Both the position numbers and the translations under genes were made by a program. Positions 8,840-24,977 of a stretch of DNA of 51,158 nucleotides are shown piece after piece. The first letter of the stretch is position 1, and each line of letters starts with the position of its first letter. Below the pieces are notes generated by a model. The model was not told the origin of the DNA. It searched no databases and saw only the letters and a list, made by a program, of their open reading frames with translations. Location: the IMG/VR virus record IMGVR_UViG_3300019132_000034, positions 1 through 51,158 of that record; one strand, given 5' to 3'. This stretch comes from a virus.

Positions 8840-9055
8840 ATGGGGGAGATGAACATGAAACGAGTGGGGAAAGTAATCGTTCTCCGTCCAAGGCAGCAGG
8901 ACAAATGGGATGTACTACGATACATTCAGCTAGCGGAAGGTAACGTCACGATGGAAGAACTGAATCAACATTTTGAAGATGTTTACGATGAGGAAATTGG
9001 TGAAGCAGTGATTGAATATCTCGCCGCTCGCCGTTCTCGAGTGGTGATTCAATGA
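8840..9055 (+). CDS. Hypothetical protein
   Basis: A 71-aa ORF. The internal ATG at 8855 has the better RBS (GGGGGAG). Confidence 0.5.
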   Translation: MGEMNMKRVGKVIVLRPRQQDKWDVLRYIQLAEGNVTMEELNQHFEDVYDEEIGEAVIEYLAARRSRVVIQ

Positions 9056-9597
9056 ATCTTTCAAAAGAATGGAATCCTGTACCGAAGCCGGTAAAAGAAC
9101 GAAAGGAAAAGCTACGCCCGAAGATACATGAGAAGCGTCCGAAGAAGAATCGAAAGAAGATAGAAGTATACAAGGGTCGTGTGATCCCGAAAGCAAAAGA
9201 CCGTACGAAAATCAGCAAGACCAACTACCACCGTATGATCGAGGAATTCGGATACCGCTGCTTGATTTGCGGAAAGACACCAATTGAAGCTCACCACATT
9301 GTTTTTCGTAGTCAGCTAGGTTCGGGGAATTGGAGAAACCTAGCACCTCTTTGTCAAATGCATCATAGAAAAGCCCACCAGGATAGAAACTTTGCTGAAT
9401 ACTTACGCCAGGAGCGAGCAGAACGATTTGGACCGCACTTTTGGAAAGACAAATATAGGCTCTTTAAAGAGGGATTGATTCTGAATACAACGGATTCGTC
9501 CTTTGAACAATTCATGAAGGAGGAAGAAAAACGTGGATTGGCTCGAATGGCAGAAAAAAGTGATAATCGAGGAATATGTGGAGGGGGAGAAAAATGA
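9052..9597 (+). CDS. HNH endonuclease with a Lys-rich N-terminus
   Basis: CLICGK...EAHHIVFRS...NLAPLCQMHHRKAH. Confidence 0.7.
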   Translation: MNLSKEWNPVPKPVKERKEKLRPKIHEKRPKKNRKKIEVYKGRVIPKAKDRTKISKTNYHRMIEEFGYRCLICGKTPIEAHHIVFRSQLGSGNWRNLAPLCQMHHRKAHQDRNFAEYLRQERAERFGPHFWKDKYRLFKEGLILNTTDSSFEQFMKEEEKRGLARMAEKSDNRGICGGGEK

Positions 9598-10511: not shown

Positions 10512-10690
10512 ACAAAGAGTATTGGCGTGGATTCCGTGACGGTCAGGAGCATGAGCGAAAGAAGGCGGCGCAGGTGTTGGCTTGCTACATAGAGTCATTG
10601 CGAGGCGTGAAGGGAATCGGCCCTGCGCTGTATCAAAGGATTGTGGAACATATCAATAAGGTGGATGTGAGAAAGGGGAAGGAAAAGTGA
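10508..10690 (+). CDS. Hypothetical protein
   Basis: In frame with track ORF 10466-10690. ATG 10508 is coupled to the upstream stop. Confidence 0.5.
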   Translation: MNKEYWRGFRDGQEHERKKAAQVLACYIESLRGVKGIGPALYQRIVEHINKVDVRKGKEK

Positions 10691-11013
10691 ATTTTAACGA
10701 ATATCAACAAGCAACTGATCGAACTTCTCCAGCATTTGATGATGAGATCGGTTGTATGGTCAATTTTGCAATGGGATTGAGTGGAGAAGCTGGGGAAATA
10801 ACTGATTACGTGAAAAAAGTGGTGTTTCAAGGTCATTCACTAGAAAAAGAAAGAATTGCTGAAGAACTAGGTGACTTACTTTGGTATGTTGCAAGAATGT
10901 CAAGTTTATTGGGATATGACTTAAGCAAAATCGCGCAAATGAACATTAAAAAACTCGAAAAGCGCTATCCAGAAGGTTTTAGTGTAGAAGCGAGCGTGAA
11001 CCGAAGCGAATGA
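10687..11013 (+). CDS. MazG-type nucleoside triphosphate pyrophosphohydrolase
   Basis: GLSGEAGEITDYVKK and EELGDLLWYV motifs. Length 108 aa. Confidence 0.8.
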   Translation: MNFNEYQQATDRTSPAFDDEIGCMVNFAMGLSGEAGEITDYVKKVVFQGHSLEKERIAEELGDLLWYVARMSSLLGYDLSKIAQMNIKKLEKRYPEGFSVEASVNRSE

Positions 11014-11966
11014 AAAACCACATCATCTTCTTTAGCGGAGGAAAATCGAGTTTTTCAGTGGCGGATTTTGTGAAAACGAATTATCCAAACGACAATATCG
11101 TTTTGTATTTCACCGATACGCTCTGGGAAGATGAGGATTTATATCGGTTCATTCATGAAGCGTCAGACAAACTCCAATTACCACTATTAACGCATAGTAT
11201 GGGCATCAATCCAATACAGTTAATGTTCCAGCAAAAAGTTTTGTTCAACAGTCGAATAGGGAACTGCTCCAAGATACTGAAAATGAAAGTGGCATCGGAT
11301 TTTCTAAAGAAAGGGAAAAAGCCAAAGATTGAAAAATGGTATAACAGGCAACATCTCAAGCAGGAAGATTTTATTTCACACGCAACTTTATACTTTGGAA
11401 TCAGCTTTGACGAAATGCATAGACAAGACGCCATCGTGAGGAATTGGCAACCATTTAGAGTAGAAATGCCGCTGATTGATAACATAGTAGATAATAACGA
11501 GATTTTACGGAAATACAACATCAGACAACCGAGACTATACGATTTAGGATTCTCTCATAACAACTGCAAAGGACGTTGCGTAAAAGCAGGACAAGGGCAT
11601 TTCCGTAATTTAAAGGAGAAAATGCCGCATGTGTTTCAAAAACTCATGGAACAAGAGCATCACATGAAAGTATATGTGTCCAGCTATCACTACATTAAGA
11701 GTTTGGATTTAGACGATGAGGTAAAAGAAATTTACCTATACGAACTAGATAAAGCCTATGAGGATTACTTCAATGGAAAAGCAGAAAAACCAAACCCATA
11801 CGTTCCTCCTAACTTGCATTTGAAACAATACAGCTTCATGAAAAAGAGTGGGAACGGAGAGGTAAGGCCTTATCCAATACGAGATTTACATTACGATGTA
11901 GAACGTGAGGGCACACAAATTGATCTGTTTGATATTGGCGGTTGTGGTTGTTTTGTAGAGTTTTAG
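11010..11966 (+). CDS. PP-loop ATPase of the PAPS-reductase-like family
   Basis: N-terminal IIFFSGGKSS PP-loop and a C-terminal Cys cluster (GGCGCF). Length 318 aa. Confidence 0.6.
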   Translation: MKNHIIFFSGGKSSFSVADFVKTNYPNDNIVLYFTDTLWEDEDLYRFIHEASDKLQLPLLTHSMGINPIQLMFQQKVLFNSRIGNCSKILKMKVASDFLKKGKKPKIEKWYNRQHLKQEDFISHATLYFGISFDEMHRQDAIVRNWQPFRVEMPLIDNIVDNNEILRKYNIRQPRLYDLGFSHNNCKGRCVKAGQGHFRNLKEKMPHVFQKLMEQEHHMKVYVSSYHYIKSLDLDDEVKEIYLYELDKAYEDYFNGKAEKPNPYVPPNLHLKQYSFMKKSGNGEVRPYPIRDLHYDVEREGTQIDLFDIGGCGCFVEF

Positions 11967-13290: not shown

Positions 13291-13722
13291 ATGGCCGTTG
13301 CGGCTCCGAAAATCAAAAAAGCAACCTTCAAACACATTGAAGCAGAACTACACAGCTACCGTGATACGCTACGTGAAATTGACCAGCTGCGCAAAGACAT
13401 TATGTTTTGTAGCGAACATACAGATGAAAATGTCGGTGGGGGAAGGAGCAACCTTCCTTCTAGTCCAACAGAACGAATCGGAACAACATTGGTGACACAT
13501 CGGAGACTGCAACAGCTAGAAACCATTGCAAACGCCATCCAATTAGTCTATGATCGGGTGCCAGATGACCACAAAAAATTGATTCAATTAAAATATTGGA
13601 CCAAACCACAACGCTACACATGGGATGGCATTGCCGAAAAACTACATATCAGTAAGCGGCAAGCCATGCGATGGCGGGATGAGATTGTATATACAATTGC
13701 GGAAGTATTGGGATGGAGGTAA
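13291..13722 (+). CDS. RinA-family / sigma-region-4-like late transcriptional activator
   Basis: HIEAELHSYRD...GGGRSN...S.TE... and a C-terminal HTH (ISKRQAMRWRDEIV). It is the last gene before the accessory island and late genes. Confidence 0.7.
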   Translation: MAVAAPKIKKATFKHIEAELHSYRDTLREIDQLRKDIMFCSEHTDENVGGGRSNLPSSPTERIGTTLVTHRRLQQLETIANAIQLVYDRVPDDHKKLIQLKYWTKPQRYTWDGIAEKLHISKRQAMRWRDEIVYTIAEVLGWR

Positions 13723-13730: not shown

Positions 13731-13746
13731 TGTCATTTTTATGTCA
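13731..13746. promoter_or_regulatory. Two TGTCA boxes 11 nt apart, upstream of RNA element A
   Basis: TGTCA at 13731 and 13742, which is the reverse complement of the TGACA boxes upstream of element B. Confidence 0.3.
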
Positions 13747-13789
13747 CTTTTAGCATAAAATAATAGTTTACAATAATAGTGTGAGATTA

Positions 13790-13902
13790 TAGCTATTCTC
13801 AAAGTCTGTCACTAGAACGAGCTAGTCTGAATCCTTTTGGCTTGGAAAACCAAAAGGAGCGAGTTTCGACAAACGCTGCTCCAATCGGGGGTGGCGTTTT
13901 TT
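13790..13902 (+). ncRNA. Structured RNA-like element A (paralogue of 20723-20835), ending in an intrinsic terminator
   Basis: Conserved 5' block TAGCTATTCTCAAAGYCTGTCACTAGAAC, then hairpin CCTTTTGG/CCAAAAGG. This is followed by conserved GGAGCGAGTTYCGACAA and a GC stem plus T-run. Confidence 0.5.
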
Positions 13903-14085
13903 ACTTTACAATAAAAAAACCCTTTGGCATATAAAGGTGAAAGAGTTGCCAAAGGAATGTCGAAAAAGGGTAAGTATTTAGAAACTAAGTATCGTATTAC
14001 AAATCGAAAATATCACAAAAATTACCAATTGTGAATATGTATTCTAAGTAAACTATGTTCTAAATGCGAAAATGAGGTGAAAGGC

Positions 14086-14241
14086 ATGGAACGATACAAG
14101 GATGATGAGGAAGAAAAATGGCTGAATGAGGTCTATGAAAAACACCAATGCAAAGGGTGCGTATGGGCTTTTTGGCAACAAAAACGGATCGTGTCATGCC
14201 TTTTTTCTCGTTGTGTGAAGGAATCTCTCTCTTCTGGATAA
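14086..14241 (+). CDS. Hypothetical Cys-containing 51-aa protein
   Basis: ATG follows GAGGTGA. Confidence 0.4.
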   Translation: MERYKDDEEEKWLNEVYEKHQCKGCVWAFWQQKRIVSCLFSRCVKESLSSG

Positions 14242-14262
14242 GCTATCCATGAGGTGAGAAAC

Positions 14263-14424
14263 ATGTACAATTGGGAGGACAAATGTACGTTTATTGAATT
14301 AAAACTGATGGCAGCGAGTATTCTTTGCAAAGTGATGGGTGATGAGGTGTACCGGAAAGAACACCTAATAACCGATTTACAAACGTTAATCAGAAGGTTA
14401 GATGCGGAGGAACCGAAGTTATAA
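14263..14424 (+). CDS. Hypothetical 53-aa protein
   Basis: ATG follows GAGGTGAGA. Confidence 0.4.
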   Translation: MYNWEDKCTFIELKLMAASILCKVMGDEVYRKEHLITDLQTLIRRLDAEEPKL

Positions 14425-14644
14425 AAAGATGGGAGGTCCGTGTTTTTAGACCGGACCGAAAAAAAGCCAGAACTGTTCCCGGCGCTCGCTACATTAAGTA
14501 TATCACGGGAGGGGGCCAAGTGGTGAAGCAATTGTCATTTAACCTTCCTGAGATAGAAAGAGAAAAAACGAAAGAAGTGTTGAAGCTGCACTGGAGAAAT
14601 ATCGATTTTATCTCCTAACGGTTCCGGAGGAACGATTACCAAAA

Positions 14645-14965
14645 GTGGCAGCGACATATTCACTTGTTCCTCCTGCTCACAAAAATGCCTTTCATTCACC
14701 TACAGAAACAGCAGTGATTGACAAAGTGGATTTCGAACGAGAAAGAGATGAGTATATGGAATGGATTAGACGCAGCGTGAATCGCCTCAGTCCGAGGGAA
14801 CGAGAGTTAATCGTCAAGCGATACTTGAGTGATGAGGAAATGTATGATTATGAACTTTACAATGAGATGGGAATGTCTGGACGGCAGTACTACCGAACGA
14901 AGGCGAGAACATTATATAAACTTGCAGTAATTCTTCGTATAGAAGTTTACAAAAAGAAAGCGTAA
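14645..14965 (+). CDS. ArpU-family transcriptional regulator, paralogue 1
   Basis: Paralogous to 17633-18037 (VPPAH...DFERERDEYME...RYL..EE.YDYE.YN.MG). The expected N-terminus (LPEIEREK) lies in the -1-related frame from GTG 14523. Confidence 0.65.
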   Translation: MAATYSLVPPAHKNAFHSPTETAVIDKVDFERERDEYMEWIRRSVNRLSPRERELIVKRYLSDEEMYDYELYNEMGMSGRQYYRTKARTLYKLAVILRIEVYKKKA

Positions 14966-15268
14966 ATAAAAAATCTAAGGTACACATTCTTTAAAATGAA
15001 ATAGGTAATTTTCTCTTTTTTCTCAATCAAAATGGCCGTAAAATATGAAGTATCTAATTCATTTTTACATACCTGTTAAATTTAGTAATACTAACGGATT
15101 CAGTGGATTACCCAATAATACGAAATATGGGTATGGGTAATTAGAGAAAAATCTAAATAAACATTAGTTCCTAGTAGTTTAGTGAACCATTAAATAGTTA
15201 GTTGTATTACCATTCTGTGAGTATGTAGAGTGAAGTTTGGCGGGGGGAACTTTGGAAGGGGAGTGGCT

Positions 15269-16108
15269 ATGACCTTTAATCATAGAATAGTTCCGGGACA
15301 AATACTAGAGAATCATGAAATTGTTTCTATTTTTAAATGTGCTCCTCGGGGTGGGATGCGTCGGTCATTAAGGACTAATTCTCTTGTAATAGTATCGGAC
15401 CATACCGAATCTTTATACGAAGATCGCTGGGAAGATGATGTGTTTCATTACACTGGAATGGGAAGGACAGGAGACCAAAAGTTAGATTCCGGACAAAATA
15501 AGACATTAGCAGAGTCACGTGCCAATGGGGTAGACATTTATCTTTTTGAAGTGTTTCGGGAAAAAGAATATGTTTTCATAGGACAGGTTGAGTTGGCTGG
15601 TCAGCCATATCAAGAGGAGCAGTTGGATATAGAAAATAATTTAAGATTAGTTTGGGTTTTTCCATTAAGATTAAGAGGCAACACCAAACCATTTGAACTT
15701 CCCCAAGAGTGGATTGAAACAAAAAATAAATCCAGGGAGAAAAAGGCAAAGAAGTTGTCAGATGGGGAGTTAAAGGTAAGAGCAAGGCATACCAGCAAGA
15801 AAGCAGTTAAACGTGCGACTAGTAAGATCTCATATGAGCGAAATCCTTATGTCAGCGAGTATGCAAAAAGATGGGCAAACGGTATATGCCAACTTTGTGG
15901 TGAGGAAGCGCCATTTCGAGATAAAAATGGGACCCCGTATTTAGAGTCCCACCACATTGAATGGTTAGCGCGCGGTGGAGATGATACAATTGAGAATACA
16001 ATTGCCCTTTGTCCAAACTGTCATAAGAAGATGCATATACTCGATCGAAAAAGCGATGTAGAAAAGCTAAAAAATCGTGTTAGAGAGCATCTTCTGTCCT
16101 TAATGTAA
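15269..16108 (+). CDS. SRA/YDG-like reader domain fused to an HNH nuclease (putative type IV modification-dependent restriction enzyme)
   Basis: N-terminal SLVIVSDH..LYEDRWEDDVFHYTGMGRTGDQ...QNKTLAES resembles the SRA YEDD..YTG.GG pattern. C-terminal HNH is CQLCG...ESHHIEW...NTIALCPNCHKKMH. The ATG at 15269 has RBS GGAAGGGGA. Confidence 0.6.
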   Translation: MTFNHRIVPGQILENHEIVSIFKCAPRGGMRRSLRTNSLVIVSDHTESLYEDRWEDDVFHYTGMGRTGDQKLDSGQNKTLAESRANGVDIYLFEVFREKEYVFIGQVELAGQPYQEEQLDIENNLRLVWVFPLRLRGNTKPFELPQEWIETKNKSREKKAKKLSDGELKVRARHTSKKAVKRATSKISYERNPYVSEYAKRWANGICQLCGEEAPFRDKNGTPYLESHHIEWLARGGDDTIENTIALCPNCHKKMHILDRKSDVEKLKNRVREHLLSLM

Positions 16109-16136
16109 ATGTTCGTAATTAGGTGGTCGATCAATA

Positions 16137-16466
16137 ATGAAAGAATTGATTCAGAAAGTTGTCATGTTTCGAGATAAACGAAACTGGAAACAATTTCACA
16201 ATGCTAAAGATCTTGCAATATCTTTATCTATTGAGGCAAGTGAGCTTCTTGAAAATTTTCAGTGGAAGACAAGCGAGGAAGCTGTTAAGGAAAACTTAGA
16301 AGATATTAAAGATGAGGTTGCTGATGTTGTTATTTATGCAATGTTGCTTTCGAATGAATTAGATTTTAACTTAGAAGAAGTTATTGAGCAGAAAATAAAG
16401 AAAAATGAAGAAAAGTATCCGATTGAAAAGGCATACGGAAGTAATAAAAAGTACAACGAATTATAG
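16137..16466 (+). CDS. MazG-like all-alpha NTP pyrophosphatase (dCTPase/DCTPP1-like)
   Basis: EASELLENFQW and EVADVVIYAMLL metal-binding motifs. Length 109 aa. Confidence 0.7.
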   Translation: MKELIQKVVMFRDKRNWKQFHNAKDLAISLSIEASELLENFQWKTSEEAVKENLEDIKDEVADVVIYAMLLSNELDFNLEEVIEQKIKKNEEKYPIEKAYGSNKKYNEL

Positions 16467-16519
16467 GAATATGAGGGATTTACCTATATTTCGTTTTTCT
16501 AAGGACGGGTGATATTAGG

Positions 16520-17527
16520 ATGTTGTACTACTTTACTGCTAGCGACGATGATGCACAGAAACATTTCTATGATACTATTGAACAGCCGTGTAACATTGGA
16601 AAGTATATCTCTATGCTTGACTCTGCTACTGTAGATATTTTAAAGCAGAACAGTAAAGATAAATATGTACATATGTGGGGGGCAACACCAGGAAAATCTA
16701 ACCGAGATCGGTGGGATAAATTAAAATCTGGAGATAAAATATTGGCTTACTCTAAGGGAGTATTTCTGTATTACGGAACAATTTTCGCTAAAACACAAAA
16801 CCAGAGAGTTGCTGAGTTAATTTGGGGGACCAATAAAGAAGGGGAGACTTGGGAGTATATCTACTTTATTAAAGATCTCAGGAAGGTAGAAATTCCTGTA
16901 GAAAAATTTAACGCATTTTTTGATTATAAAATGAACTTTACCCCTCAAGGCTTTTCGAATATTGAAAAGAAAAGGTTTACTTTGAGATATGAAAAATACG
17001 GATCAATTGACAAAATAATTGAAGTTCTTGAAAGTCAATTTATTATCTCTGAAGAAGAAATAGAAGAGGATAATTATCAAATAAGTATTCAGTCTTCTTC
17101 ATTGAATAAGGTTAAGATTGAGGGGGGGATTAAACCTGAAAAACGTCCGAAACCAAGGAAAGAAAAGGGAAAGCAGGTATGGCCAAGGGATCCGAAAAAA
17201 GCTCAACAAGCGTTGAAGAGAGCTGAGTTTAAATGTGAGATTGATGAATCACATATAACGTTCATGAGTGAGGCAAGTAATGTCCCTTATATGGAAGCAC
17301 ATCATTTAATACCACTGAAAATGCAACATGAGTTTGAACAAAGCTTAGATGTGATCGGTAATATTGTTAGTTTATGTCCAAACTGTCATCGAATGATTCA
17401 CCATGCGAAACCTAGGGAAAAGAAGAAGTTATTAGAACAATTGTATCAGAAACGAAAATGTGAGTTAGAACAAAGTAGTTTAAATATTGATCTTGAATAT
17501 TTGTTGAGTGTATACGCAATAAAATAG
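16520..17527 (+). CDS. HNH nuclease with an N-terminal PUA/EVE-like putative reader domain
   Basis: C-terminal MEAHHLIPL...NIVSLCPNCHRMIHH. The N-terminal 150 aa (WGATPGKSN..W..LKSGDKILAY...WEYIYFI) is assigned only tentatively. Confidence 0.55.
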   Translation: MLYYFTASDDDAQKHFYDTIEQPCNIGKYISMLDSATVDILKQNSKDKYVHMWGATPGKSNRDRWDKLKSGDKILAYSKGVFLYYGTIFAKTQNQRVAELIWGTNKEGETWEYIYFIKDLRKVEIPVEKFNAFFDYKMNFTPQGFSNIEKKRFTLRYEKYGSIDKIIEVLESQFIISEEEIEEDNYQISIQSSSLNKVKIEGGIKPEKRPKPRKEKGKQVWPRDPKKAQQALKRAEFKCEIDESHITFMSEASNVPYMEAHHLIPLKMQHEFEQSLDVIGNIVSLCPNCHRMIHHAKPREKKKLLEQLYQKRKCELEQSSLNIDLEYLLSVYAIK

Positions 17528-17632
17528 CATCTTACCGGTTAATCGGGGCATACTGAAAGGGTTTTGGTGCTTGTTTGGTCAAATAGATGTTAAGATGAAA
17601 TAAACGGTTTGTTATTTACCTGAAGTTAACAG

Positions 17633-18037
17633 GTGGGGAGGAGAGTTGAATCTGCATTGGAGAAATATCGATTTTATCTCCTAACGGTTCCAGAGGAAAA
17701 GCTACCGAGGGTGGCAGTGGCATATTCATTTGTTCCTCCTGCTCACATCAATCGTTTTTATTCATCTACAGAAAGCGCGGCCATCCAAATAGCAGATTTT
17801 GAACGAGAACGCGATGAGTACATGGAGAGAATACGCCGCGTAGTGAATCGGCTCAATAAAACGGAGCGAGGATTGATTAGACGATATATGACGCTTGAAG
17901 AACCTTATGATTACGAGATCTACAACGACATGGGAATCAGTGAATCGAGGTTCTACCGCGTTCGCGAAAAGGCGTTCTACAAGCTGGCCTTTGCGTTGCG
18001 GATTGAGGTTTACAAAGAAGAAGAGGCACCTGTTTAG
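17633..18037 (+). CDS. ArpU-family transcriptional regulator, paralogue 2
   Basis: A 134-aa ORF with the ArpU-type pattern LEKYRFYLL...S.TE.A...DFERERDEYM...YRVREKAFYKLA. Confidence 0.7.
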   Translation: MGRRVESALEKYRFYLLTVPEEKLPRVAVAYSFVPPAHINRFYSSTESAAIQIADFERERDEYMERIRRVVNRLNKTERGLIRRYMTLEEPYDYEIYNDMGISESRFYRVREKAFYKLAFALRIEVYKEEEAPV

Positions 18038-18052
18038 GGTGCTTTATTATTT
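18026..18052 (+). terminator. Possible intrinsic terminator
   Basis: GCACC/GGTGC stem followed by a T-rich run. Confidence 0.4.
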
Positions 18053-18194
18053 ACTCAGTATATAGTGTGATATTGGTAAAAACCAGGATGTAACATTGTA
18101 TATGTTTACCTGAGTATTTTCAACATTTTTTAATTGATTAAATATAAATTAATTACTAAAATATTACTATAAAGGAAGAAAAGGAGGGGATTAA

Positions 18195-18659
18195 ATGCCA
18201 ACGGTCTTCGAGGTCGCAAGATACTTTTTAAGTAAAAGCGTCCCAAATACTCCGTGGGCAATTACCCACCTAAAATTACAAAAATTAGCTTATTATGCAC
18301 AAGGTTGGTATCTAGCTTTTACTGGAAATGTTCTATTTAATGAAAGACTAGAGGCATGGGTTCATGGGCCTGTTAGTCCTGATCTTTTTCATAAATATAG
18401 GAGATTCGGACACAATGAAATACCACAAGAAGATTTCCCAGATAGTAGGTCCATTTTTACAAAAAAACAACTAGAGGTGCTCGATGCCGTATGGGAAGCA
18501 TATGGGGAATACAGTGGAAAGTTTTTAGAAGAATTAACCCACCAAGAACTTCCTTGGCTTGAAGCAAGATCAAATCTTGATTCCAATGATTATTCAAATG
18601 AAGTTATTTTGGTTGATACAATACGTTCATATTTTAGAAACCAGCTAGGAGACGAATAA
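18195..18659 (+). CDS. DUF4065 / Panacea-domain (GepA/SocA-like) antitoxin-like protein
   Basis: THLKLQKLAYYAQGWYLAF.G..LF.E..EAWVHGPV hallmark. Confidence 0.75.
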   Translation: MPTVFEVARYFLSKSVPNTPWAITHLKLQKLAYYAQGWYLAFTGNVLFNERLEAWVHGPVSPDLFHKYRRFGHNEIPQEDFPDSRSIFTKKQLEVLDAVWEAYGEYSGKFLEELTHQELPWLEARSNLDSNDYSNEVILVDTIRSYFRNQLGDE

Positions 18660-18679
18660 CCTTTTTCGTCTCTTAATTT

Positions 18680-20569
18680 GTGTTAAATGGAGGGAAAGCA
18701 TTGTATTTGGAAAGGGTAAGAGAGATTATCAGATGGGTTATTATTGTGCTCAAAAACCTACTAATTTTTTGTTTTAGACTCATTTTTTCTATTAGTCAAT
18801 TGTACGGACTCTTAGTCAGAAGAACGTTTGTTTTATTGATACTTTACGCAATTATTTATTATTTATTATTTTACAGGTTTTCTATTGCACAGTTTCAGGC
18901 AGATATTAATCAAGAAAATGAAATGTTTTTAGCAAAAATATTTAAGTATGTGCATATTTTTCAAGCGAATGATGAAGTAGTGATGCAAATTATCTCTTCC
19001 GGAACAAAGTTTTTAAGTGTTGTATTCTCTGTAATATTGACACTATTTATTTTTTCGCATAGGGAACAAAGAGCAATCGCACCTTCGTCAACTTACCGGT
19101 TTTATAAAAACTATATTTTTTTATTTTTTCTTTCATTATTAATGATAACTATGCCTTACGGGTTTCACTTATCACTTATCTATAAGTCTAGTTTACATAC
19201 ACAATATTCGGAATTGGGTATTACTATTACATACTTTGGACGATTTGTTACATGGATTATTCTCTTCTTATTTTCCATTGTGCTTATTGGATATACAATT
19301 GTTTCTTTATTTCGAACTATTAACATTAATTGGTTATTACCTGTAACTATTCAACAAGTAAGATCCACATTAATAAACCTGGAGGTTGTGTTGGATAACA
19401 GGTGGTTTAGGAAAACAAGAATAAATGAATACAATGAATTGAATTTTAATATTGAAAGTGTTTATCAAATGCTTGAATATGCTGCTGAAAATAATATGAG
19501 CAAAGACTATTATGATAATATAGAAAAACTACGAGAAACGTTCTCTATTCTAAAAAAGGAACATTTTTATTATAAATCATCATCAGTCTACGCAAGTTTT
19601 TATAATAGGGACCAAGAAGAGTTTAGATCTTTTCATAGGTCTGTCTTAAAAAATACCTTATCATTAGCTACTGCTCTATATAAAAATAATAAGTTTAACA
19701 AAGGACAGAAAGCATTGGACCTATTATTTTCTCTATACTCAGATAAAATTCCTCCCGTTTTGAGGCATGACTATATTGCGAGTATTTATGAGTTAATACA
19801 ATTAACTGATTTAAAAAATGGGGCAAAAGTTCGTGCAATTTTAAACGGTTTGGAAACAATGAAGACGGAATATACACTCATTTTGTATCAAGCTCTAATA
19901 CTTCGAATAATTAGTGAGAACAACATACAATTACTAACGTCAGTTGTTTACTCAATGAAAAAAAATATAGATAGGAATATAAAGCCTAATAACGGTGGAA
20001 TACCACGTATTGAGTTAATTATTAATAAAGCTTTAAAAAGAAAATATAAGCTGTTGAATATAGGGATACTTTTACAGTGTATGGTGAAAAGTATTGAGTT
20101 GTCTCATTACGCTTGTACAGGCTTTTTAATAAAATTTCTTGTTACAAACTTCAGTGGAAAATTGGTGAAGGAAGCTTTTAATGCTTTGTTGAATAATGGA
20201 ATGGTTTTTGGTACTATCTATCCCAACATGGGGGAGAACGTGCATTTAGACATTGATTACTACTTCAACGAAAAAACATACGATTATTGCTTAAAGAAAT
20301 TGTGTATTCTATTGTACGGGCAACAAAGGTATGCAGTAAGAAACGGTCTATCTTTTATTGAAGAATTTCATAAAGAGTCGTATGAATACATTGATATAGG
20401 ATCGGCATTCGTAGAGTGTGACTACAAAGAATATATATTTACTAAGGTATTGTCAGCAGGGAAAAAGTATGGATTTCTTTATCTAAAGGATAAGGAATTC
20501 TTAAGAGATCTTGCTAAGGATTTTGGTGTTCAAACATTATTGATGGAGGAGTTGCTTCCTGACCTTTAA
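18680..20569 (+). CDS. Large polytopic membrane protein of unknown function (candidate toxin/effector partner of the Panacea protein)
   Basis: About 6 hydrophobic helices in the first ~215 aa, then an alpha-helical soluble region of about 400 aa. The gene is AT-rich. The likely true start is TTG 18701, after GGAGGG. Confidence 0.6.
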   Translation: MLNGGKALYLERVREIIRWVIIVLKNLLIFCFRLIFSISQLYGLLVRRTFVLLILYAIIYYLLFYRFSIAQFQADINQENEMFLAKIFKYVHIFQANDEVVMQIISSGTKFLSVVFSVILTLFIFSHREQRAIAPSSTYRFYKNYIFLFFLSLLMITMPYGFHLSLIYKSSLHTQYSELGITITYFGRFVTWIILFLFSIVLIGYTIVSLFRTININWLLPVTIQQVRSTLINLEVVLDNRWFRKTRINEYNELNFNIESVYQMLEYAAENNMSKDYYDNIEKLRETFSILKKEHFYYKSSSVYASFYNRDQEEFRSFHRSVLKNTLSLATALYKNNKFNKGQKALDLLFSLYSDKIPPVLRHDYIASIYELIQLTDLKNGAKVRAILNGLETMKTEYTLILYQALILRIISENNIQLLTSVVYSMKKNIDRNIKPNNGGIPRIELIINKALKRKYKLLNIGILLQCMVKSIELSHYACTGFLIKFLVTNFSGKLVKEAFNALLNNGMVFGTIYPNMGENVHLDIDYYFNEKTYDYCLKKLCILLYGQQRYAVRNGLSFIEEFHKESYEYIDIGSAFVECDYKEYIFTKVLSAGKKYGFLYLKDKEFLRDLAKDFGVQTLLMEELLPDL

Positions 20570-20632
20570 GGGGGATAAGAAGATTGTTCCCCATTGGAAT
20601 CCATTCAGGAATTCCATTTTAATTAGGGATAG

Positions 20633-20670
20633 TGACAGAAAACTGAAGGAAAAATGACGGAAAGATGACA
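20633..20670. promoter_or_regulatory. Three phased TGAC(A/G) boxes upstream of RNA element B
   Basis: Boxes at 20633, 20655 and 20666, a spacing of 22 and 11 nt. Confidence 0.3.
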
Positions 20671-20722
20671 GATTATTTTGGTTTAGACGTGTTATGATGG
20701 TATCGTGGATCTTTTGTTGAAG

Positions 20723-20835
20723 TAGCTATTCTCAAAGCCTGTCACTAGAACTAGCGAGTCCGAATCTCGTTTGTGTGGAAAGCAGGCGGGAGCGAGTTCC
20801 GACAAGCGTCACCCGATCAGGTGGCGTTTTTATTT
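20723..20835 (+). ncRNA. Structured RNA-like element B (paralogue of 13790-13902), ending in an intrinsic terminator
   Basis: Same conserved blocks as copy A. The central stem CTCGTTTG/CAGGCGGG and the terminator stem CGTCACC/GGTGGCG differ in sequence from copy A but still pair. Confidence 0.5.
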
Positions 20836-20880
20836 TGGCGGTTTAAATATTATAATTAACTTGAGGGAGGGCGGAAAAGG

Positions 20881-21615
20881 ATGGAAAATTTTATTTCTCT
20901 ACTAGTTTTTACGTTACCAGGTTTATTAACTTATTTCTGGATCCAATTATTCGGTTTAACCCCAACCGTTAAACATCAAAGTACAGAGATGTTGGCAATT
21001 AGTGCTCTATTATGGATACCGGTTATGGTTACAGTATTATTCTTTTATCAATTATTGGCGTATGCTTCAAGCTTAGACATGTTCTATTTGGGAGTTGATA
21101 TACCAATTTTAAAAAAAGATTGGACCATGATAAATAAGTTAAGTGACATAGTTACTTTGCCCGACAATGTATGGTTTTTATTATATTTTGTAGCATCAAG
21201 TATAATAGTTAGTTTTTATGTAGCAAAATTTATATGTAAAAAGGGTTATAAAAAATTATTACATAAGGTTAACCAAATTCGTAAAGAAAATGGGTTAGCT
21301 CCATTATCTGGAAATACAACAGTTTGGAACGAAGCATTTTTGGGAAATGAAGGGCAATTAGTCGAGGTTTACAAAATTGATAAACCAGACGAAAAGGTGA
21401 TTGGTTGTATAAAAAAAGTGTCCAGAGCGTTCGAGCCCGAAAAAAATATTGTTCTTGAGGGCGTCGAGCACTGGACAGAAGTGATGAAACATTATCACGT
21501 TGAAATCGATGATATATTTATTGATACTAAAACAGGATTGGTAATTAAGATATATAATACAGATCAGGCACTAGAGGCGCAGAACTTATACAACAACAGT
21601 AAAGCTACTTCTTAG
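20881..21615 (+). CDS. Membrane protein of unknown function
   Basis: A 244-aa ORF with about 4 N-terminal hydrophobic helices. RBS GAGGGAGGG. Confidence 0.6.
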   Translation: MENFISLLVFTLPGLLTYFWIQLFGLTPTVKHQSTEMLAISALLWIPVMVTVLFFYQLLAYASSLDMFYLGVDIPILKKDWTMINKLSDIVTLPDNVWFLLYFVASSIIVSFYVAKFICKKGYKKLLHKVNQIRKENGLAPLSGNTTVWNEAFLGNEGQLVEVYKIDKPDEKVIGCIKKVSRAFEPEKNIVLEGVEHWTEVMKHYHVEIDDIFIDTKTGLVIKIYNTDQALEAQNLYNNSKATS

Positions 21616-21736
21616 GCTGAACACCTGTTGAAGGTGGCTTCATGGTTAATGAAGGCTTGTCTGCAGAATTCTGTTGATGTCCCTGTCCAGTACCAATTGG
21701 TTTGACATTAGTCTGAAATGGGGGTCTTTTTCCCAT
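21605..21736 (-). CDS. Hypothetical 43-aa Pro/Gly/Gln-rich protein
   Basis: ATG follows GGAGGTAAAAATT on the minus strand, downstream of the DUF2188 gene. Confidence 0.4.
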   Translation of the reverse strand: MGKRPPFQTNVKPIGTGQGHQQNSADKPSLTMKPPSTGVQPKK

Positions 21737-21943
21737 AATTTTTACCTCCTTTGCTATATATACTTTAGTAAACTATAAACCAATGTACAAAGTTAGTTAG
21801 GCTAAAGTCCCCGGGTAAGAGGTATTTTTTTGCTCTTAGAAGCCGTAAAGATAAAAAAAGGTGATAATTAAAAGCACCTTAGGATGTTTCTTCTTTTTTC
21901 ATAAAAAGAACCACCAAGACGTTGGTAAAGTTAATTTTAAGAA

Positions 21944-22168
21944 TTAGCCTTTAGGTGGAAAAGTGTCGTTTCCATATGAATCTTTAGCACGAATTCTTCC
22001 ATCTGGTCTGTGAATAACAAGCTCCAACGCTTCTTTCCGGGCAATATCTCTTGCTTTATCTACTGCATCTTTTTGAGTATCATGTCGCGAAGAAGCTCTC
22101 GGCGCCCCACCTCTTTTTACTTGCCATCCACCGTCTGGATGTGGTGTAACGTGTATTGTATCTGACAT
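21944..22168 (-). CDS. DUF2188-family protein
   Basis: DGGWQVKRGGA.RASS.H.TQKDAV..AR.IA......LVIHRPDGRI...SYGND..PPKG. Confidence 0.7.
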   Translation of the reverse strand: MSDTIHVTPHPDGGWQVKRGGAPRASSRHDTQKDAVDKARDIARKEALELVIHRPDGRIRAKDSYGNDTFPPKG

Positions 22169-22238
22169 AATTCCACCTCCTTTCTTTTTACAAAATTCCC
22201 CAAAAAGGAAGAAAATTCCTTCTTTTTTGTCGAATTAG

Positions 22239-22466
22239 GTGGATAGAAGGGGGAGAAATTTGGAAGAGGCAACTCAAGCTATTCAAAAACTTGCGTGGAC
22301 ACTAACCTTAAAACTCGTATGGCTTATATTATTGATGTTTGTGTTTTATGCTTTGGCCTTCTTTCTCGCGAGGTCTCTTCGTTTACCATTTAAGATAGCC
22401 AATACATTCGGCAGCCTGGCTAGCCTGGTTGGTTTTTACTTTTGGACTCAATACATAATTTCTTAA
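22239..22466 (+). CDS. Small two-helix membrane protein
   Basis: Hydrophobic segments LVWLILLMFVFYALAFFLA and LASLVGFYFW. TTG 22260 after AGGGGGAG is an alternative start. Confidence 0.5.
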   Translation: MDRRGRNLEEATQAIQKLAWTLTLKLVWLILLMFVFYALAFFLARSLRLPFKIANTFGSLASLVGFYFWTQYIIS

Positions 22467-22483
22467 TCATATTGAGAAATTTG

Positions 22484-22510
22484 GCATCCGAATAATCGGG
22501 TGCTTTTTTA
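22484..22510 (+). terminator. Intrinsic terminator
   Basis: GCATCCG/CGGGTGC stem followed by TTTTTT. Confidence 0.7.
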
Positions 22511-22797: not shown

Positions 22798-23691
22798 GTG
22801 GCTAGGCAAAGAGATCCTAAACGAGATGAAGCTTTTGAAATATGGAAAAATAGCGGAGGAACTAAAAAATTAAACGAGATTGCCGAGGAGCTCGGAGTAA
22901 GTCCAGGAACGGTTCGTGGTTGGAAAAATAAAGATGCCTGGGAAGAAAAATTAAACGGAACGTTCCAAAAAAAGAAACGGAGCGCTCTTGTAAATGAAAC
23001 GGAACGTTCCAAACCTAAAAGGGGAGCGCCGCTAGGAAATAAAAATGCTTTAGGTAACAAAGGAGGGGCTCCGCCTGGTAATAAAAACGCAGTAGGTAAT
23101 AAAGGTGGAGCCGCTCCTCTGAGAAATGCTAATGCGGTGAAAACCGGTGAGTTCAGGAGTCTGTGGTATGACATATTAGATGAAGATGAAAAGCAATTGG
23201 TGAATCAAATTGAGGTTGTCGAACCGATTCAACAAGTGATTGATGAAATTAAATTGTACTCTTTCCGGGAAGCGTTCATTATGAAACGGATTAAGGCACT
23301 CAAAGAAGGGATGACCTCCGCTCAAAAACGGGTGTTAAAACAACTAAAAAAAGTGAAGGACAAAGTGAAGGTAGATGATCCGAATAGCAGCGAAGGCTAC
23401 CGCATAATCGAAAAGGAAGATTATAAGTTGATGGAGACGGAAATTGAGGAGATTTCCGCAGATCCGGTGGAACAAGTTTTAGCCCACGAGGAAGCCCTTA
23501 CTCGAGTTCAAGATAAAAAGGTTAAGGCTTTGGATTTGCTGTTTCGTATGACAGATGAGTTTAATCATAAAAAGTTGATGGATGAAATTAAAACAACCAT
23601 CCTGCAAGAGAAATGGGACAAAGAGAAAAAAGGAAATGAGGATGACAAACCGATTGAAATCATCATTAAACGAAAAGGTGATGATGGATGA
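22798..23691 (+). CDS. terS: Terminase small subunit
   Basis: N-terminal HTH ([22 protein letters not shown]) and repeated GAPxGNKNAxGNKGG motifs. It lies directly upstream of terL. Confidence 0.8.
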
Positions 23692-24977
23692 CTGTAAAAG
23701 AAGTGAATCCTCATTTTGAAGAATTTTTGTTTAATTGGAAACATAAGTTTTATTTCCTTGTAGGGGGGTATGGTTCATCCAAAAGTTATCATATTGCGCT
23801 TAAAATTGTGCTGAAGTTGTTAGAGGAAAAGCGAACCGCTCTTGTGGTTCGTGAAGTTTACGACACCATACGCGACTCCTGCTATTCCTTATTTGAAGAA
23901 ATCGTAATTGATTTGGGGCTAGACAATCGAATTAAGTTTACTTCCTCCCCAATGATGGTCCGTTTTCCGAACGGTTCCAAAATCATTTTTAAGGGGATGG
24001 ATAAACCCGCTAAACTCAAATCCATTCACAATGTATCGATTATATGGATCGAAGAGTGTTCAGAGGTCAAATACGACGGGTTTAAAGAGTTGTTGGGGCG
24101 CTTGCGTCATCCAACGTTACAGCTGCACATGATTCTTTCTACTAACCCGGTAAGCAAAAGCAACTGGTGTTATAAATTCTTTTTTAAAGACGAAAAGAAC
24201 AAGTATTTTGTGTTGGATGATGAGGAGTTATATCGAAAGCGGAAGATGGTAATCAAAAACACCTATTACCATCACTCAACCGCTGATGATAATTTATTTT
24301 TGCCTCAAGACTATATTGAACAGCTAGAAGAATTGAAAACCCATGATCCAGACCTCTACCGAATCGCGAGAAAAGGTCGATTTGGTGTAAATGGTACATT
24401 GGTATTCCCGCAGTTTGAAGTAATGGCGCATGAGGAAGTCATGAAGCACATTCAATCGATTAAAAATCCAATTAAACGGGCGGGAATGGACTTTGGTTTT
24501 GAAGATTCATATAATGCGTTGCTGCGGGTAGCGGTGGACCATGATGAAAAGATTCTATATATCTATTGGGAGTATTACAAAAACAAAATGACGGATGACC
24601 GGACAGCGGAAGAAATTATGGAGTTTAAGGAAAAGAGGGAACTGATTAAAGCAGATAGCGCGGAACCAAAAACAATTCAATATTTTAGACAACGAGGGTT
24701 CCGTATGGTAGCGGCTAAGAAGTTCCAGGGCTCAAGGCTCCAATATACAAAGAAAATTAAACGATTCAAACGGATTATATGCTCTGACGCGTGTCCGAAT
24801 ACTATTGATGAGTTAAAGGAACTGACTTATAAAATGGACAAAGATGGGAATATCATCGAGGATGAATTCAATATCGACCCACATACTTTGAGTGCCATAT
24901 GGTATGCGCTTGATGATTATGAGGTTTCCGACCTAAAAGGAAGTTATCAGGCACGTGCTGTTCCGTCTCTATATTAA
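23688..24977 (+). CDS. terL: Terminase large subunit (PBSX family)
   Basis: Walker A (VGGYGSSKS), Walker B (IIWIEE) and a C-terminal nuclease region. Length 429 aa. Confidence 0.9.

What the first reader, a model, noticed from the sequence alone, without database searches (positions are those of the whole stretch)
13790..20835. AT-rich accessory island of about 7 kb, bracketed by the two RNA-element copies, between the late activator and the packaging genes
Everything between the two element copies is non-essential-looking cargo:
- two tiny ORFs;
- two ArpU paralogues;
- two HNH nucleases;
- a MazG-like enzyme;
- a Panacea protein;
- a 629-aa membrane protein.

From about 15.0 kb onward the island looks clearly more AT-rich than the flanking phage backbone. 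I judged this by eye and did not compute it.

The direct-repeat bracket suggests the cargo entered or is exchanged by recombination between copies of a late-operon leader. That would make this a defence/moron hotspot.
Basis: partly seen in the sequence, partly recalled or inferred. Interest (0 to 1): 0.7.

Follow-up and report, generated by a model that had tools for sequence, protein, structure and literature searches.

The report
Stacked late-gene switches with defence cargo
The 7-kb AT-rich "island" in this temperate Bacillaceae phage is not one insertion. It is a patchwork of two or three late-gene control modules with defence-type cargo wedged between each activator gene and its promoter, a position that turns out to be a cargo hotspot in dozens of related phages.

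Summary
The repeat pair, the gene list and the AT-richness are real. However, the two repeats do not delimit one island.

- **The repeats.** Copy 1 (13790-13875) lies behind a RinA-type promoter. Copy 2 (20723-20808) lies behind an ArpU-type promoter. Each copy ends in an intrinsic terminator. They are 76% identical to each other, whereas copy 2 is 90-91% identical to leaders of other phages.
- **The interval.** It is a fine mosaic. It holds a first-late-gene segment, two 5'-damaged arpU genes, and three AT-rich cargo blocks:
  - McrA-like HNH / MazG-like / HNH;
  - a Panacea + 629-aa membrane-protein cassette;
  - DUF6338/DUF2188, which lies beyond copy 2.
- **The hotspot.** In 37 related phages the slot between arpU and its box promoter ranges from 16 nt to 3.2 kb. 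It holds 75 ORFs in 58 clusters. It is AT-richer than its phage in 32 of 33 cases and is rich in toxin-antitoxin and defence genes.

"Moron/defence hotspot" is therefore supported. "Exchange by recombination between the two leader copies" is not.

A side observation may matter more. All late promoters of this kind carry a terminator just downstream, which hints at lambda-Q-like antitermination.

The parts
13291..13722 (+). rinA, an intact late activator of the RinA family
   Evidence: TIGR01636 at 107.6 bits against a cut-off of 31.9. phrog_36. 349 homologs, all carrying PF05263.
13731..13774 (+). RinA-type late promoter: two TGTCA(T/C) boxes 11 nt apart (13731-13736 and 13742-13747), with a -10 TACAAT 21 nt further on (13769-13774)
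   Evidence: 84% identical to L155 12485-12540 and similar to L156 11602-11654. The same layout of boxes, spacing and -10 occurs in L018, L021, L022, L025, L027, L029, L032 and L033. Binding by RinA is inferred from PMC3753634.
13790..13875 (+). Leader element copy 1: an 85-nt insert folding as a long interrupted stem-loop
   Evidence: The apical hairpin is kept by 4 compensatory pairs relative to the other copies. No Rfam match.
13871..13905 (+). Intrinsic terminator 1. Its 3' arm GGGGTGGCGTTTTT equals the consensus of the ArpU-type cassettes.
14077..14241 (+). 54-aa Cys-rich ORF of the 'first gene after the late promoter' type
   Evidence: Homologs lie directly after the cassette in L159, L160 (twice), L162, L164 and L176. 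phrog_32677.
14254..14424 (+). 56-aa ORF of the 'gene preceding arpU' type. The 14241/14254 boundary is a joint between a late-operon start and an early-region end.
   Evidence: Homologs lie just upstream of arpU in L006, L158 and L172.
14520..14965 (+). arpU pseudogene 1. A 1-nt deletion near 14575 shifts the frame after about codon 19. The residual ORF is 14645-14965.
   Evidence: TIGR01637, profile positions 37-136 only. The lesion is identical in two other assemblies. 82% aa identity to the arpU of L002 and L173.
15039..15166 (+). Non-coding remnant homologous to the slot of an L173-like phage
   Evidence: 77.5% identical to L173 12163-12291.
15167..17640 (+). Cargo block A (GC about 0.357, measured on 15001-17600): HNH1 15230-16108, MazG-like 16137-16466, HNH2 16520-17527
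   Evidence: No DNA or protein relative in any fetched locus. The HNH domains match E. coli McrA 6ghc (E 2e-19 and 7e-12). PADLOC mREase_IV hits are at domain level. Precomputed SRA_ScoMcrA+HNH for HNH1; own scan gives only a weak SAD_SRA hit. PF12643 MazG-like.
17633..18037 (+). arpU copy 2 (134 codons starting at a GTG with no obvious SD). The ancestral ATG at 17595 is followed by TAA at codon 3 and a 7-nt deletion. GC is 0.457. A terminator lies at 18023-18045.
   Evidence: TIGR01637, profile positions 12-136. 60-85% identical to 45 viral loci.
18048..20569 (+). Cargo block B (GC 0.311): the Panacea (panA) gene 18195-18659 and the 629-aa membrane/alpha-solenoid protein 18680-20569. A promoter-like site lies at 18134-18162.
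   Evidence: The cassette is 70.5% identical at the DNA level to L206, which is a non-late context. Panacea sits immediately upstream of the homolog in all four contexts. PF13274. No family or fold match for the 629-aa protein.
20633..20698 (+). ArpU-type late promoter: four 11-nt-spaced boxes (20634-20671) and an extended -10, TGTTATGAT (20690-20698)
   Evidence: An nhmmer profile hits 49 places, always downstream of arpU on the same strand and never in RinA-only loci. Column conservation is shown.
20723..20808 (+). Leader element copy 2
   Evidence: 90-91% identical to the leaders of L002 and L006..
20804..20834 (+). Intrinsic terminator 2, of the family-consensus type
20838..22228 (.). Cargo block C, beyond copy 2 (GC 0.350): DUF6338 membrane protein 20881-21615 (+) and DUF2188 21944-22168 (-)
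   Evidence: L002 has only 254 nt here, against 1422 nt in the window. A DUF2188 homolog sits right after the cassette in L188. Pfam. GC.
22239..22504 (+). 75-aa single-TM ORF, which is the first late gene in L002 and L006, plus its terminator at 22483-22504
   Evidence: 93% DNA identity to L002 4539-4793..
22798..24977 (+). terS (22798-23691) and terL (23688-24977), marking the start of the packaging genes
   Evidence: PF10668; PF04466 and PF17288.

Best explanation
The interval 13.8-22.2 kb is the early/late boundary of a temperate Bacillaceae siphovirus. It was built by repeated recombination with other phages and is not a single inserted island.

**Three control modules lie in tandem.**
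- Module A: an intact rinA, its two-box promoter, leader 1 with its terminator, and a typical first late gene (54 aa).
- Module B: the 56-aa pre-arpU gene, a frameshifted arpU, and the slot that follows it. That slot now holds two McrA-like HNH nucleases and a MazG-like enzyme.
- Module C: a second arpU with a destroyed start. Its slot holds a Panacea + 629-aa membrane-protein cassette. It is followed by the cognate four-box ArpU promoter, leader 2 and a terminator.

A third cargo block (DUF6338/DUF2188) follows module C, and then the normal first late gene and the terminase.

**Why this position collects cargo (inferred).**
- The activator works in trans on its boxes, so the distance between gene and promoter is free.
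- The terminator after the promoter insulates the late genes from whatever is inserted upstream.
- The flanks (arpU, the box promoter, the leader/terminator) are conserved among otherwise mosaic phages. They offer homology for exchange, probably through annealases such as this phage's own ERF protein.

**Shown:** the anatomy, the mosaic joints, the hypervariability, and the cargo families.

**Inferred:** the direction and order of the recombination events; that RinA is now the working late activator; and that the cargo acts in defence or toxin-antitoxin roles.
For: - Two different promoter types sit in front of the two leader copies.
- The element travels with arpU, not with rinA. It is absent from 27 RinA prophages and from the closest RinA relatives. 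It is present in L002 and L006, which carry arpU.
- The DNA mosaic map has sharp joints and three blocks without any DNA-level relative.
- The 54-aa ORF is the first post-cassette gene elsewhere, and the 56-aa ORF is the pre-arpU gene elsewhere.
- The arpU lesions are real and reproduced in independent assemblies.
- Slot survey: 37 loci, 16-3161 nt, 75 ORFs in 58 clusters, slot GC below locus GC in 32 of 33 slots of at least 500 nt.
- Cargo families in those slots: Panacea x5, RelA_SpoT x2, PIN, Shosta/PsyrTA, PDC-M04, integrase-family genes and others.
- The cassette lies 0.7-7.5 kb upstream of terL in 28 loci across three terminase families.
- L160 shows the same stacking: arpU, slot, cassette, 54-aa ORF, arpU fragment, slot, cassette.
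- L176 carries rinA and arpU together.
- The Panacea + 6xx-aa pair is conserved in four unrelated contexts.
- The HNH domains are McrA-like.
- The phage encodes an ERF annealase.
- Ltr activators are known to bind direct repeats (PMC3753634).
Against: - No relative close enough (more than 90% backbone identity but a different island) was found, so the order of events could not be reconstructed.
- arpU2 keeps a 134-codon ORF with a strong family score. It may still be functional, in which case the arrangement could be a working cascade rather than decay.
- The promoters and terminators are sequence predictions only.
- The window's own cargo gives no complete PADLOC system.
- The SRA domain of HNH1 rests on a precomputed annotation. 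My own scan gave only a weak hit.
- The slot survey used mechanical ORFs, not curated genes.
Confidence: 0.65

Rival explanations
1. It proposes one accessory island that entered, or is swapped, by homologous recombination between the two copies of the late-operon leader that bracket it.
For: - Direct repeats of 86-115 nt flank about 6.9 kb of mostly cargo-like, AT-rich genes.
- The phage has an ERF annealase that tolerates short homologies.
Against: - The copies are 76% identical, with a longest exact run of 15 nt. Copy 2 is 90-91% identical to leaders in other phages.
- The interior holds backbone-type segments with dozens of relatives, namely arpU twice and the 54-aa and 56-aa ORFs.
- AT-rich cargo continues 1.4 kb past copy 2.
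- The copies follow different promoters.
- No relative with a single leader replacing the interval was found.
Confidence: 0.12
2. This model proposes a working regulatory cascade. RinA activates its promoter at 13.7 kb and drives a 'middle' operon containing arpU2. ArpU2 then activates the box promoter at 20.6 kb to switch on the packaging and late genes. On this view the interval is functional timing circuitry that has picked up passengers.
For: - The order and orientation fit: rinA, then P_RinA, then arpU, then P_ArpU, then terS.
- L176 also carries rinA upstream of arpU.
- arpU2 scores 105 bits on TIGR01637 and has backbone-like GC.
- The ArpU promoter in the window is well conserved.
Against: - The ancestral start codon and SD of arpU2 are destroyed, and the ORF restarts at a GTG without an SD. 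The other copy is frameshifted.
- Nearly all relatives manage with a single activator of one type.
- A strong terminator follows each promoter.
Confidence: 0.2
3. This model proposes an assembly artefact: a chimeric contig or a collapsed or duplicated repeat that creates a false island.
For: The sequence is of metagenomic origin. Repeated sequences are classic sites of mis-assembly.
Against: Four independent assemblies (Logan, two ENA, JGI) are 100% identical over the parts they cover. L211 spans the whole interval.
Confidence: 0.02

Closest known systems
Ltr late-activator systems of Gram-positive siphoviruses (RinA, ArpU, LtrA-C) with activator-specific direct repeats upstream of the late (terS) promoter: Ferrer 2011 (PMC3152322), Quiles-Puchalt 2013 (PMC3753634)
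   Same: [quoted passage not shown]
- Activator-specific direct repeats lie upstream of the late promoter.
- A terminator lies in the activator-terS interval.
- Family membership passes NCBI cut-offs.
   Different: - Two activator types and three gene copies are stacked in one phage.
- The activator gene is usually separated from its repeats by up to 3 kb of cargo, rather than the repeats being 'immediately distal'.
- The terminator lies downstream of the predicted -10, inside the late leader, in every cassette examined.
- An extra 85-nt structured insert occupies the leader.
Moron/cargo hotspot at the lambda Q - pR' - tR' late switch of lambdoid phages, for example stx genes (own knowledge)
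   Same: - Accessory genes of foreign composition accumulate at the early/late boundary, next to the late regulator and a promoter-proximal terminator.
- The position is conserved while its content is hypervariable.
   Different: - Most cargo here lies upstream of the late promoter, between the activator gene and its binding boxes, so it is not late-co-transcribed.
- The regulator families are unrelated to Q.
- Antitermination is not shown.
PanA-PanT (Panacea) toxin-antitoxin pairs: Kurata 2022 (PMC8832971)
   Same: - A Panacea-domain protein lies immediately upstream of a conserved partner, as a bicistronic pair on mobile elements.
- Membrane-targeting partners are a known class.
- Five other slots in related phages hold Panacea genes, two of them alongside RelA_SpoT toxSAS-type genes.
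   Different: - The partner is a 620-730-aa protein with a multi-TM N-terminus and an alpha-solenoid-like C-terminus, and it has no family or fold match.
- The membrane PanTs described in the passages I read are small peptides.
- Toxicity and neutralisation are untested.
McrA-type (type IV, modification-dependent) HNH restriction nucleases, for example E. coli McrA of prophage e14 (PDB 6ghc) and ScoMcrA (5zmm)
   Same: - The C-terminal HNH domain is similar and lies at the same position in proteins of similar size.
- The genes are prophage-borne.
- An SRA-type N-terminal domain is annotated for HNH1.
   Different: - The N-terminal domains are divergent. My own scan gave only a weak SAD_SRA hit, and HNH2 has no named N-terminal domain.
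- Two paralogous genes flank a MazG-like gene.
- Activity is untested.
cis-acting leader RNAs that govern read-through of downstream terminators (HK022 put, riboswitch or attenuator leaders) (own knowledge)
   Same: - A structured RNA sits between the promoter and the first terminator.
- Two copies occur per genome, each behind a promoter.
- The structure is kept by compensatory changes.
   Different: - No sequence or structure match to any Rfam family.
- No alternative antiterminator pairing is evident.
- Most related phages lack the insert yet keep the terminator.

Membership tests
RinA family late activator (TIGR01636 / PF05263) | Profile score above the curated cut-off over the full length | tested here: met
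   107.6 bits against 31.9, residues 8-141. PF05263 is precomputed in all homologs.
ArpU family late activator (TIGR01637) | Profile score above the curated cut-off | tested here: met
   105.9 bits and 105.1 bits against 43.1.
ArpU family late activator (TIGR01637) | Intact full-length gene with a start codon and RBS, as in homologs | tested here: not met
   Copy 1 is frameshifted by a 1-nt deletion. Copy 2 has its ancestral ATG followed by TAA plus a 7-nt deletion. Profile coverage is 37-136 and 12-136, against 2-136 in L002.
Ltr-type late promoter (PMC3753634) | Activator-specific direct repeats upstream of the late promoter, downstream of the activator gene | tested here: met
   Four 11-nt-spaced boxes lie in front of copy 2 and are conserved in 42 cassettes. 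Two 11-nt-spaced boxes lie in front of copy 1 and are shared with RinA phages.
Ltr-type late promoter (PMC3753634) | Activator binds the repeats and is required for late transcription | not testable with these tools
   Needs EMSA or reporter assays.
Moron (Hendrix/Juhala sense, own knowledge) | An extra gene or genes between genes or sites that are adjacent in relatives, with deviant base composition | tested here: met
   arpU abuts its promoter in L175 (37 nt) and L192 (20 nt), against 2.6 kb in the window. Block GC is 0.311-0.357 against 0.407. The blocks have no relatives in sister loci.
Moron (Hendrix/Juhala sense, own knowledge) | Own promoter and terminator | tested here: inconclusive
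   Consensus-level promoter-like sites lie at 18134-18162 and 15064-15092. Terminators lie at 18023-18045 and 20804-20829. Promoter-like sites are no more frequent than in shuffled sequence.
PanA-PanT toxin-antitoxin | Panacea (PF13274) domain protein | tested here: met
   81.5 bits against 25.7. The NCBIfam SocA_antitoxin equivalog cut-off is not reached: 58 bits against 190.
PanA-PanT toxin-antitoxin | Conserved two-gene adjacency with a partner across unrelated contexts | tested here: met
   L206, L207/L208 and L209 all have a 147-154-aa Panacea gene immediately upstream of the 6xx-aa homolog.
PanA-PanT toxin-antitoxin | The partner is toxic and is neutralised by PanA | not testable with these tools
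   Needs expression assays. The partner has no known toxin domain.
Type IV (McrA-like) restriction nuclease | C-terminal HNH domain of McrA type | tested here: met
   6ghc at E 2.4e-19 (HNH1) and 6.6e-12 (HNH2). PADLOC mREase_IV at 1.4e-20 and 4.4e-12, C-terminal part only.
Type IV (McrA-like) restriction nuclease | N-terminal modified-DNA reader domain (SRA or similar) | tested here: inconclusive
   HNH1 has a precomputed PF26348 SRA_ScoMcrA hit, but my own scan gave only SAD_SRA at E 0.017, below the cut-off. HNH2 has none.
Known anti-phage defence system (PADLOC-DB 2.0) | Full complement of system proteins | tested here: not met
   Only HNH-domain hits were found among the 10 island proteins. 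Slots of related phages do hold PADLOC families.
Any described RNA family (Rfam 15) | Covariance-model match to the 85-nt element or the leader | tested here: not met
   No hit at gathering threshold over the window. Only noise at E up to 10 around copy 1.
Integrative genomic island (site-specific) | Integrase or recombinase within the island, and att-like flanking repeats | tested here: not met
   No recombinase lies among the island ORFs. The flanking repeats are promoter-proximal leaders found at the same place in other phages.
Lambda-Q-type late antitermination | Promoter-proximal terminator that late transcripts must pass | tested here: met
   A hairpin plus T-run lies about 50-130 nt after the -10 in all ArpU cassettes (35 of 42 pass strict criteria; the rest are expanded or interrupted). 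The same holds in 9 RinA-type promoters. This is sequence prediction only.
Lambda-Q-type late antitermination | The regulator renders RNA polymerase terminator-resistant | not testable with these tools
   Needs in vitro transcription or Term-seq. No paper linking RinA or ArpU to antitermination was found.

The most novel reading that the evidence does not exclude
RinA/ArpU-family 'late activators' may work as lambda-Q-like antiterminators, or together with one.

- In every ArpU-type cassette (42 of 42) the activator boxes and -10 are followed within about 50-130 nt by an intrinsic terminator that late transcripts must cross. The same holds in every RinA-type promoter that directly follows rinA (9 loci across several genera).
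- The hairpin is kept by covariation across at least 6 unrelated stem sequences.
- This reading would explain the unexplained requirement of staphylococcal RinA for DNA more than 155 bp upstream of the mapped terS 5' end, with a terminator in between.
- It would also explain how this phage, with both arpU copies damaged, could reach terS from the RinA promoter across four terminators.
- The 85-nt leader insert would then be an accessory modulator of that read-through.
Probability: 0.3. Interest if true: 0.75.

Novelty: new member of a known kind. Interest (0 to 1): 0.45.

Why it matters
- **A predictable place to look for new genes.** The slot between the late activator gene and its promoter collects toxin-antitoxin and defence-type genes in a whole group of Geobacillus/Parageobacillus/Bacillus-type temperate phages. 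It is a useful place to mine for new systems. One example is the Panacea + 6xx-aa membrane-protein pair, which is conserved in four unrelated mobile contexts and matches no known family.
- **How the regulatory DNA evolves.** Late-switch modules (activator, boxes, leader, terminator) are shuffled and stacked between phages.
- **A testable mechanistic question.** A terminator sits downstream of these promoters in every case examined. This raises a question about a widely annotated but mechanistically unresolved regulator family.

Tried and rejected
- **Rfam.** The whole window at gathering threshold and copy 1 at E up to 10 gave nothing.
- **tRNA or att-type island.** No tRNA genes and no recombinase in the island.
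- **GenBank phages, near-identity search.** Only short arpU-type hits to GBSV1/BV1/PK5.2 and one to virus E2.
- **Exact-pattern scans for the element.**
  - The first pattern gave a chance hit in a coding region (L001).
  - The 3'-block pattern gave three chance hits (L003-L005).
Copies in metagenomes may therefore have been missed.
  - A tolerant pattern found only L002, L006 and L007.
- **Assumption that the element travels with rinA.** Rejected. It is absent from 27 RinA prophages and from the two closest RinA relatives.
- **Idea that tandem -10-like hexamers after the RinA boxes mark a sigma-dependent pause.** Dropped. The conserved 21-nt spacing identifies the second hexamer as the -10.
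- **Hand-searched antiterminator pairing within the element.** None was convincing.
- **629-aa protein.** No Pfam, PHROG, NCBIfam, PADLOC or PDB sequence match. The AlphaFold model (pLDDT 77.8) has no significant Foldseek match in PDB or BFVD.
- **Cos/pac-site reading of the box array.** Rejected. The boxes co-vary with the activator and not with the terminase family, and they lie up to 7.5 kb from terL.

Full report
**Setting.** The window is a temperate siphovirus of a Bacillaceae host.
- It encodes a serine-recombinase integrase, a CI-like repressor, Gp157, an ERF annealase, ThyX, an antirepressor and replication genes. These are followed by rinA, the interval in question, and then terS/terL.
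- Its RinA is 82-85% identical to proteins from a Parageobacillus genomosp. 1 prophage and from a metagenomic contig.
- No near relative exists among GenBank phages.
- The same phage was assembled independently four times, and those assemblies are 100% identical over the parts they cover.

**Observation check.**
- The two repeat copies are real: 13790-13875 and 20723-20808, 79% identical. The core word occurs twice, against 0.08 expected.
- Each copy runs into an intrinsic terminator.
- The gene list holds. RinA passes TIGR01636. Both ArpU paralogues pass TIGR01637. There are two HNH proteins, a MazG-like protein, a Panacea protein, and a 629-aa protein with about 5-6 N-terminal hydrophobic helices.
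- GC is 0.355 inside the interval against 0.407 outside, but the signal is patchy:
  - 13790-15000 is 0.399 and arpU2 is 0.457, both backbone-like;
  - the low blocks are 15.0-17.6 kb (0.357), 18.05-20.63 kb (0.311) and 20.84-22.23 kb (0.350);
  - the last block lies beyond copy 2.

**What the repeats are.**
- Genuine copies outside the window exist only in L002 and L006/L007.
- In those loci the element does not accompany rinA. It follows an ArpU-family gene, after one cargo gene, and it precedes a homolog of window ORF 22239-22466.
- I fetched 45 viral loci through the ArpU protein.
- These revealed a cassette present in essentially all of them. It always lies downstream of arpU on the same strand, and it never occurs in RinA-only loci.
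- The cassette consists of four boxes (G[A/G]CAGAAA) at an 11-nt period, then about 20 nt, then an extended -10 (TGnTAnnnT, with T1, A2 and T6 invariant).
- A short leader and a hairpin plus T-run follow.
- The basal leader is 42-46 nt.
- It folds as one long interrupted stem-loop. Its apical hairpin is kept by four compensatory pairs. It matches no Rfam family.
- The cassette lies 0.7-7.5 kb upstream of terL in 28 loci, irrespective of terminase family. It is therefore the late-operon promoter.
- The box array matches what is known for Ltr activators, which bind activator-specific direct repeats (PMC3753634).

**Copy 1 is a chimera.**
- Its upstream region lacks the ArpU boxes.
- Instead it carries two TGTCA boxes 11 nt apart plus a -10 located 21 nt further on. 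This segment is 84% identical to a segment in L155 and similar to one in L156, the closest RinA phages.
- The same layout occurs in eight further RinA prophages.
- The terminator's 3' arm nevertheless equals the ArpU-cassette consensus.
- Copy 1 is 75-76% identical to every other copy, whereas copy 2 is 90-91% identical to L002 and L006. The longest exact run shared by copies 1 and 2 is 15 nt.

**Anatomy of the interval .**
1. RinA backbone, up to 13729.
2. RinA-type promoter, 13731-13774.
3. Leader 1 and its terminator.
4. The 54-aa ORF, which is the first gene after the cassette in L159, L160, L162, L164 and L176.
5. The 56-aa ORF, which precedes arpU in L006, L158 and L172.
6. arpU copy 1, frameshifted by a 1-nt deletion.
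7. A 129-nt remnant of an L173-type slot.
8. A block without relatives, 15167-17640 (HNH, MazG-like, HNH).
9. arpU copy 2. Its ancestral ATG is followed by TAA and a 7-nt deletion, and the ORF restarts at a GTG without an SD.
10. The Panacea cassette, 18048-20544, 70.5% identical to L206, which is a non-late context.
11. The ArpU promoter, leader 2 and terminator, 92% identical to L002.
12. A block without relatives, 20838-21942 (DUF6338), followed by DUF2188 on the minus strand. A DUF2188 homolog sits right after the cassette in L188.
13. The 75-aa ORF, 93% identical to L002. L002 has only 254 nt between its leader and this ORF.

L160 shows the same kind of stacking, and L176 carries rinA together with arpU.

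**Hotspot test (cargo naming).**
- In 37 non-redundant ArpU loci, the slot between the arpU stop codon and the first box ranges from 16 nt to 3161 nt.
- It holds 75 ORFs of at least 70 aa, which fall into 58 clusters, 48 of them singletons.
- Slot GC is below locus GC in 32 of 33 slots of at least 500 nt, by 6.8 points on average (my arithmetic on the values).
- Pfam families in the slots include Panacea (5), Phage_integrase (4), DUF3800 (3), RelA_SpoT (2), HATPase + DUF4325 (2), PIN, DNA_processing_A and FA_desaturase.
- PADLOC families include PDC-M04, ShosA/ShosT, PsyrA/PsyrT, DrmA-like, PDC-S33, PDC-S51 and PDC-M53B.
- The RinA-to-terS interval also differs completely among the closest RinA relatives.

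**The window's own cargo.**
- The C-terminal domains of HNH1 and HNH2 match E. coli McrA (6ghc) and ScoMcrA, and PADLOC mREase_IV at domain level.
- HNH1 is annotated SRA_ScoMcrA+HNH in the precomputed table. My own scan gave only a weak SAD_SRA hit.
- Both HNH proteins are rare among GenBank phages.
- The 629-aa protein has only 10 homologs. In every context examined, a 147-154-aa Panacea gene sits immediately upstream:
  - an integrase-proximal region (L206);
  - the lysis end of a Paenibacillus prophage, next to HicAB (L207/L208);
  - a site beside a Tn7-like transposon (L209).
- Its AlphaFold model (pLDDT 77.8) is all-alpha and has no significant structural match.
- The membrane PanT toxins described in the passages I read are small peptides (PMC8832971). 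If this partner is a toxin or effector, it would be a new partner class.

**Interpretation.**
- The interval is a stack of late-control modules with three cargo blocks sitting at two conserved insertion positions: activator-to-promoter, and terminator-to-first-late-gene.
- "Hotspot" is supported. "One island exchanged between its two bracketing leaders" is not.
- Which activator now drives late genes is open.
  - RinA is intact and abuts its promoter.
  - Both arpU genes look impaired, but arpU2 may still be expressed.

**Side observation.**
- The terminator lies downstream of the predicted -10 in all ArpU cassettes. It also does so in all nine RinA-type promoters that directly follow rinA.
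- The hairpin is conserved in structure and position across unrelated stem sequences.
[quoted passage not shown] It also noted that RinA needs DNA more than 155 bp upstream of the mapped 5' end, without offering an explanation (PMC3152322).
- I found no paper connecting these regulators with antitermination.
- A Q-like mechanism is an inference and has not been shown.

Noticed in passing
window 20633-20834 and 13731-13905; L157-L205 cassettes; L018, L021, L022, L025, L027, L029, L032, L033 after rinA: Every ArpU-type late promoter, and every RinA-type promoter that directly follows rinA, has an intrinsic terminator about 50-130 nt downstream of the -10. The hairpin is kept by covariation across at least 6 unrelated stem sequences. 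Late transcripts must cross it, which suggests Q-like antitermination.
   Followed up: partly
window 18195-20569; L206 5508-7920; L207 5498-8013; L209 5394-7835: The Panacea gene and a 620-670-aa protein (multi-TM N-terminus, alpha-solenoid C-terminus) form a conserved two-gene cassette in four unrelated mobile contexts. The large protein has no family or fold match and only 10 homologs in 5.8 billion proteins.
   Followed up: partly
window 14520-14965 and 17595-18037: Both arpU copies are damaged at the 5' end. Copy 1 has a 1-nt deletion causing a frameshift. Copy 2 has a stop at codon 3 plus a 7-nt deletion and a lost SD. The lesions are identical in independent assemblies.
   Followed up: yes
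L158/L186, L162-L164, L168, L165/L178/L179/L200, L173, L180, L184 leaders: At least four other unrelated sequence inserts occupy the same spot between the -10 and the terminator in other ArpU phages. One type expands the terminator loop itself. The L158 insert may be a shortened relative of the 85-nt element.
   Followed up: no
L160 1621-5471; L173 12983-13782; L197 12060-14760: Other phages also carry two late-promoter cassettes in tandem. L160 additionally has an arpU fragment between them, which mirrors the stacking seen in the window.
   Followed up: partly
L008 about 10790-10815 (389 nt after rinA): A RinA-only prophage carries a terminator (CGTCTATCCAATAGGGTAGGCG) nearly identical to that of the ArpU-type cassette in L158. 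Leader/terminator modules therefore seem to be shared between the two promoter types.
   Followed up: no
window 22483-22504: The terminator after the 75-aa ORF is 97-100% identical to 31-33-nt stretches in L164 and L155, although the flanks are unrelated.
   Followed up: no
window 10687-11966: The backbone carries a second MazG-type gene (10687-11013; PF03819 in the precomputed table) next to a PAPS-reductase-like gene (11010-11966). The phage therefore has two MazG-family enzymes.
   Followed up: no
window 14466-14483 (minus strand): A terminator-like hairpin with a T-run lies on the minus strand between the 56-aa ORF and arpU copy 1. No minus-strand gene is nearby.
   Followed up: no
window 3775-4404 and 9052-9597: The phage encodes an ERF-family annealase, which is relevant to mosaicism through short homologies. 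It also encodes a third HNH protein in the early region.
   Followed up: no
L176 9330-9690 (minus strand): By my reading of the translated sequence (no profile search was run), a CheY-like receiver-domain gene sits on the reverse strand between rinA and arpU in L176. This is another cargo insertion at the same boundary.
   Followed up: no
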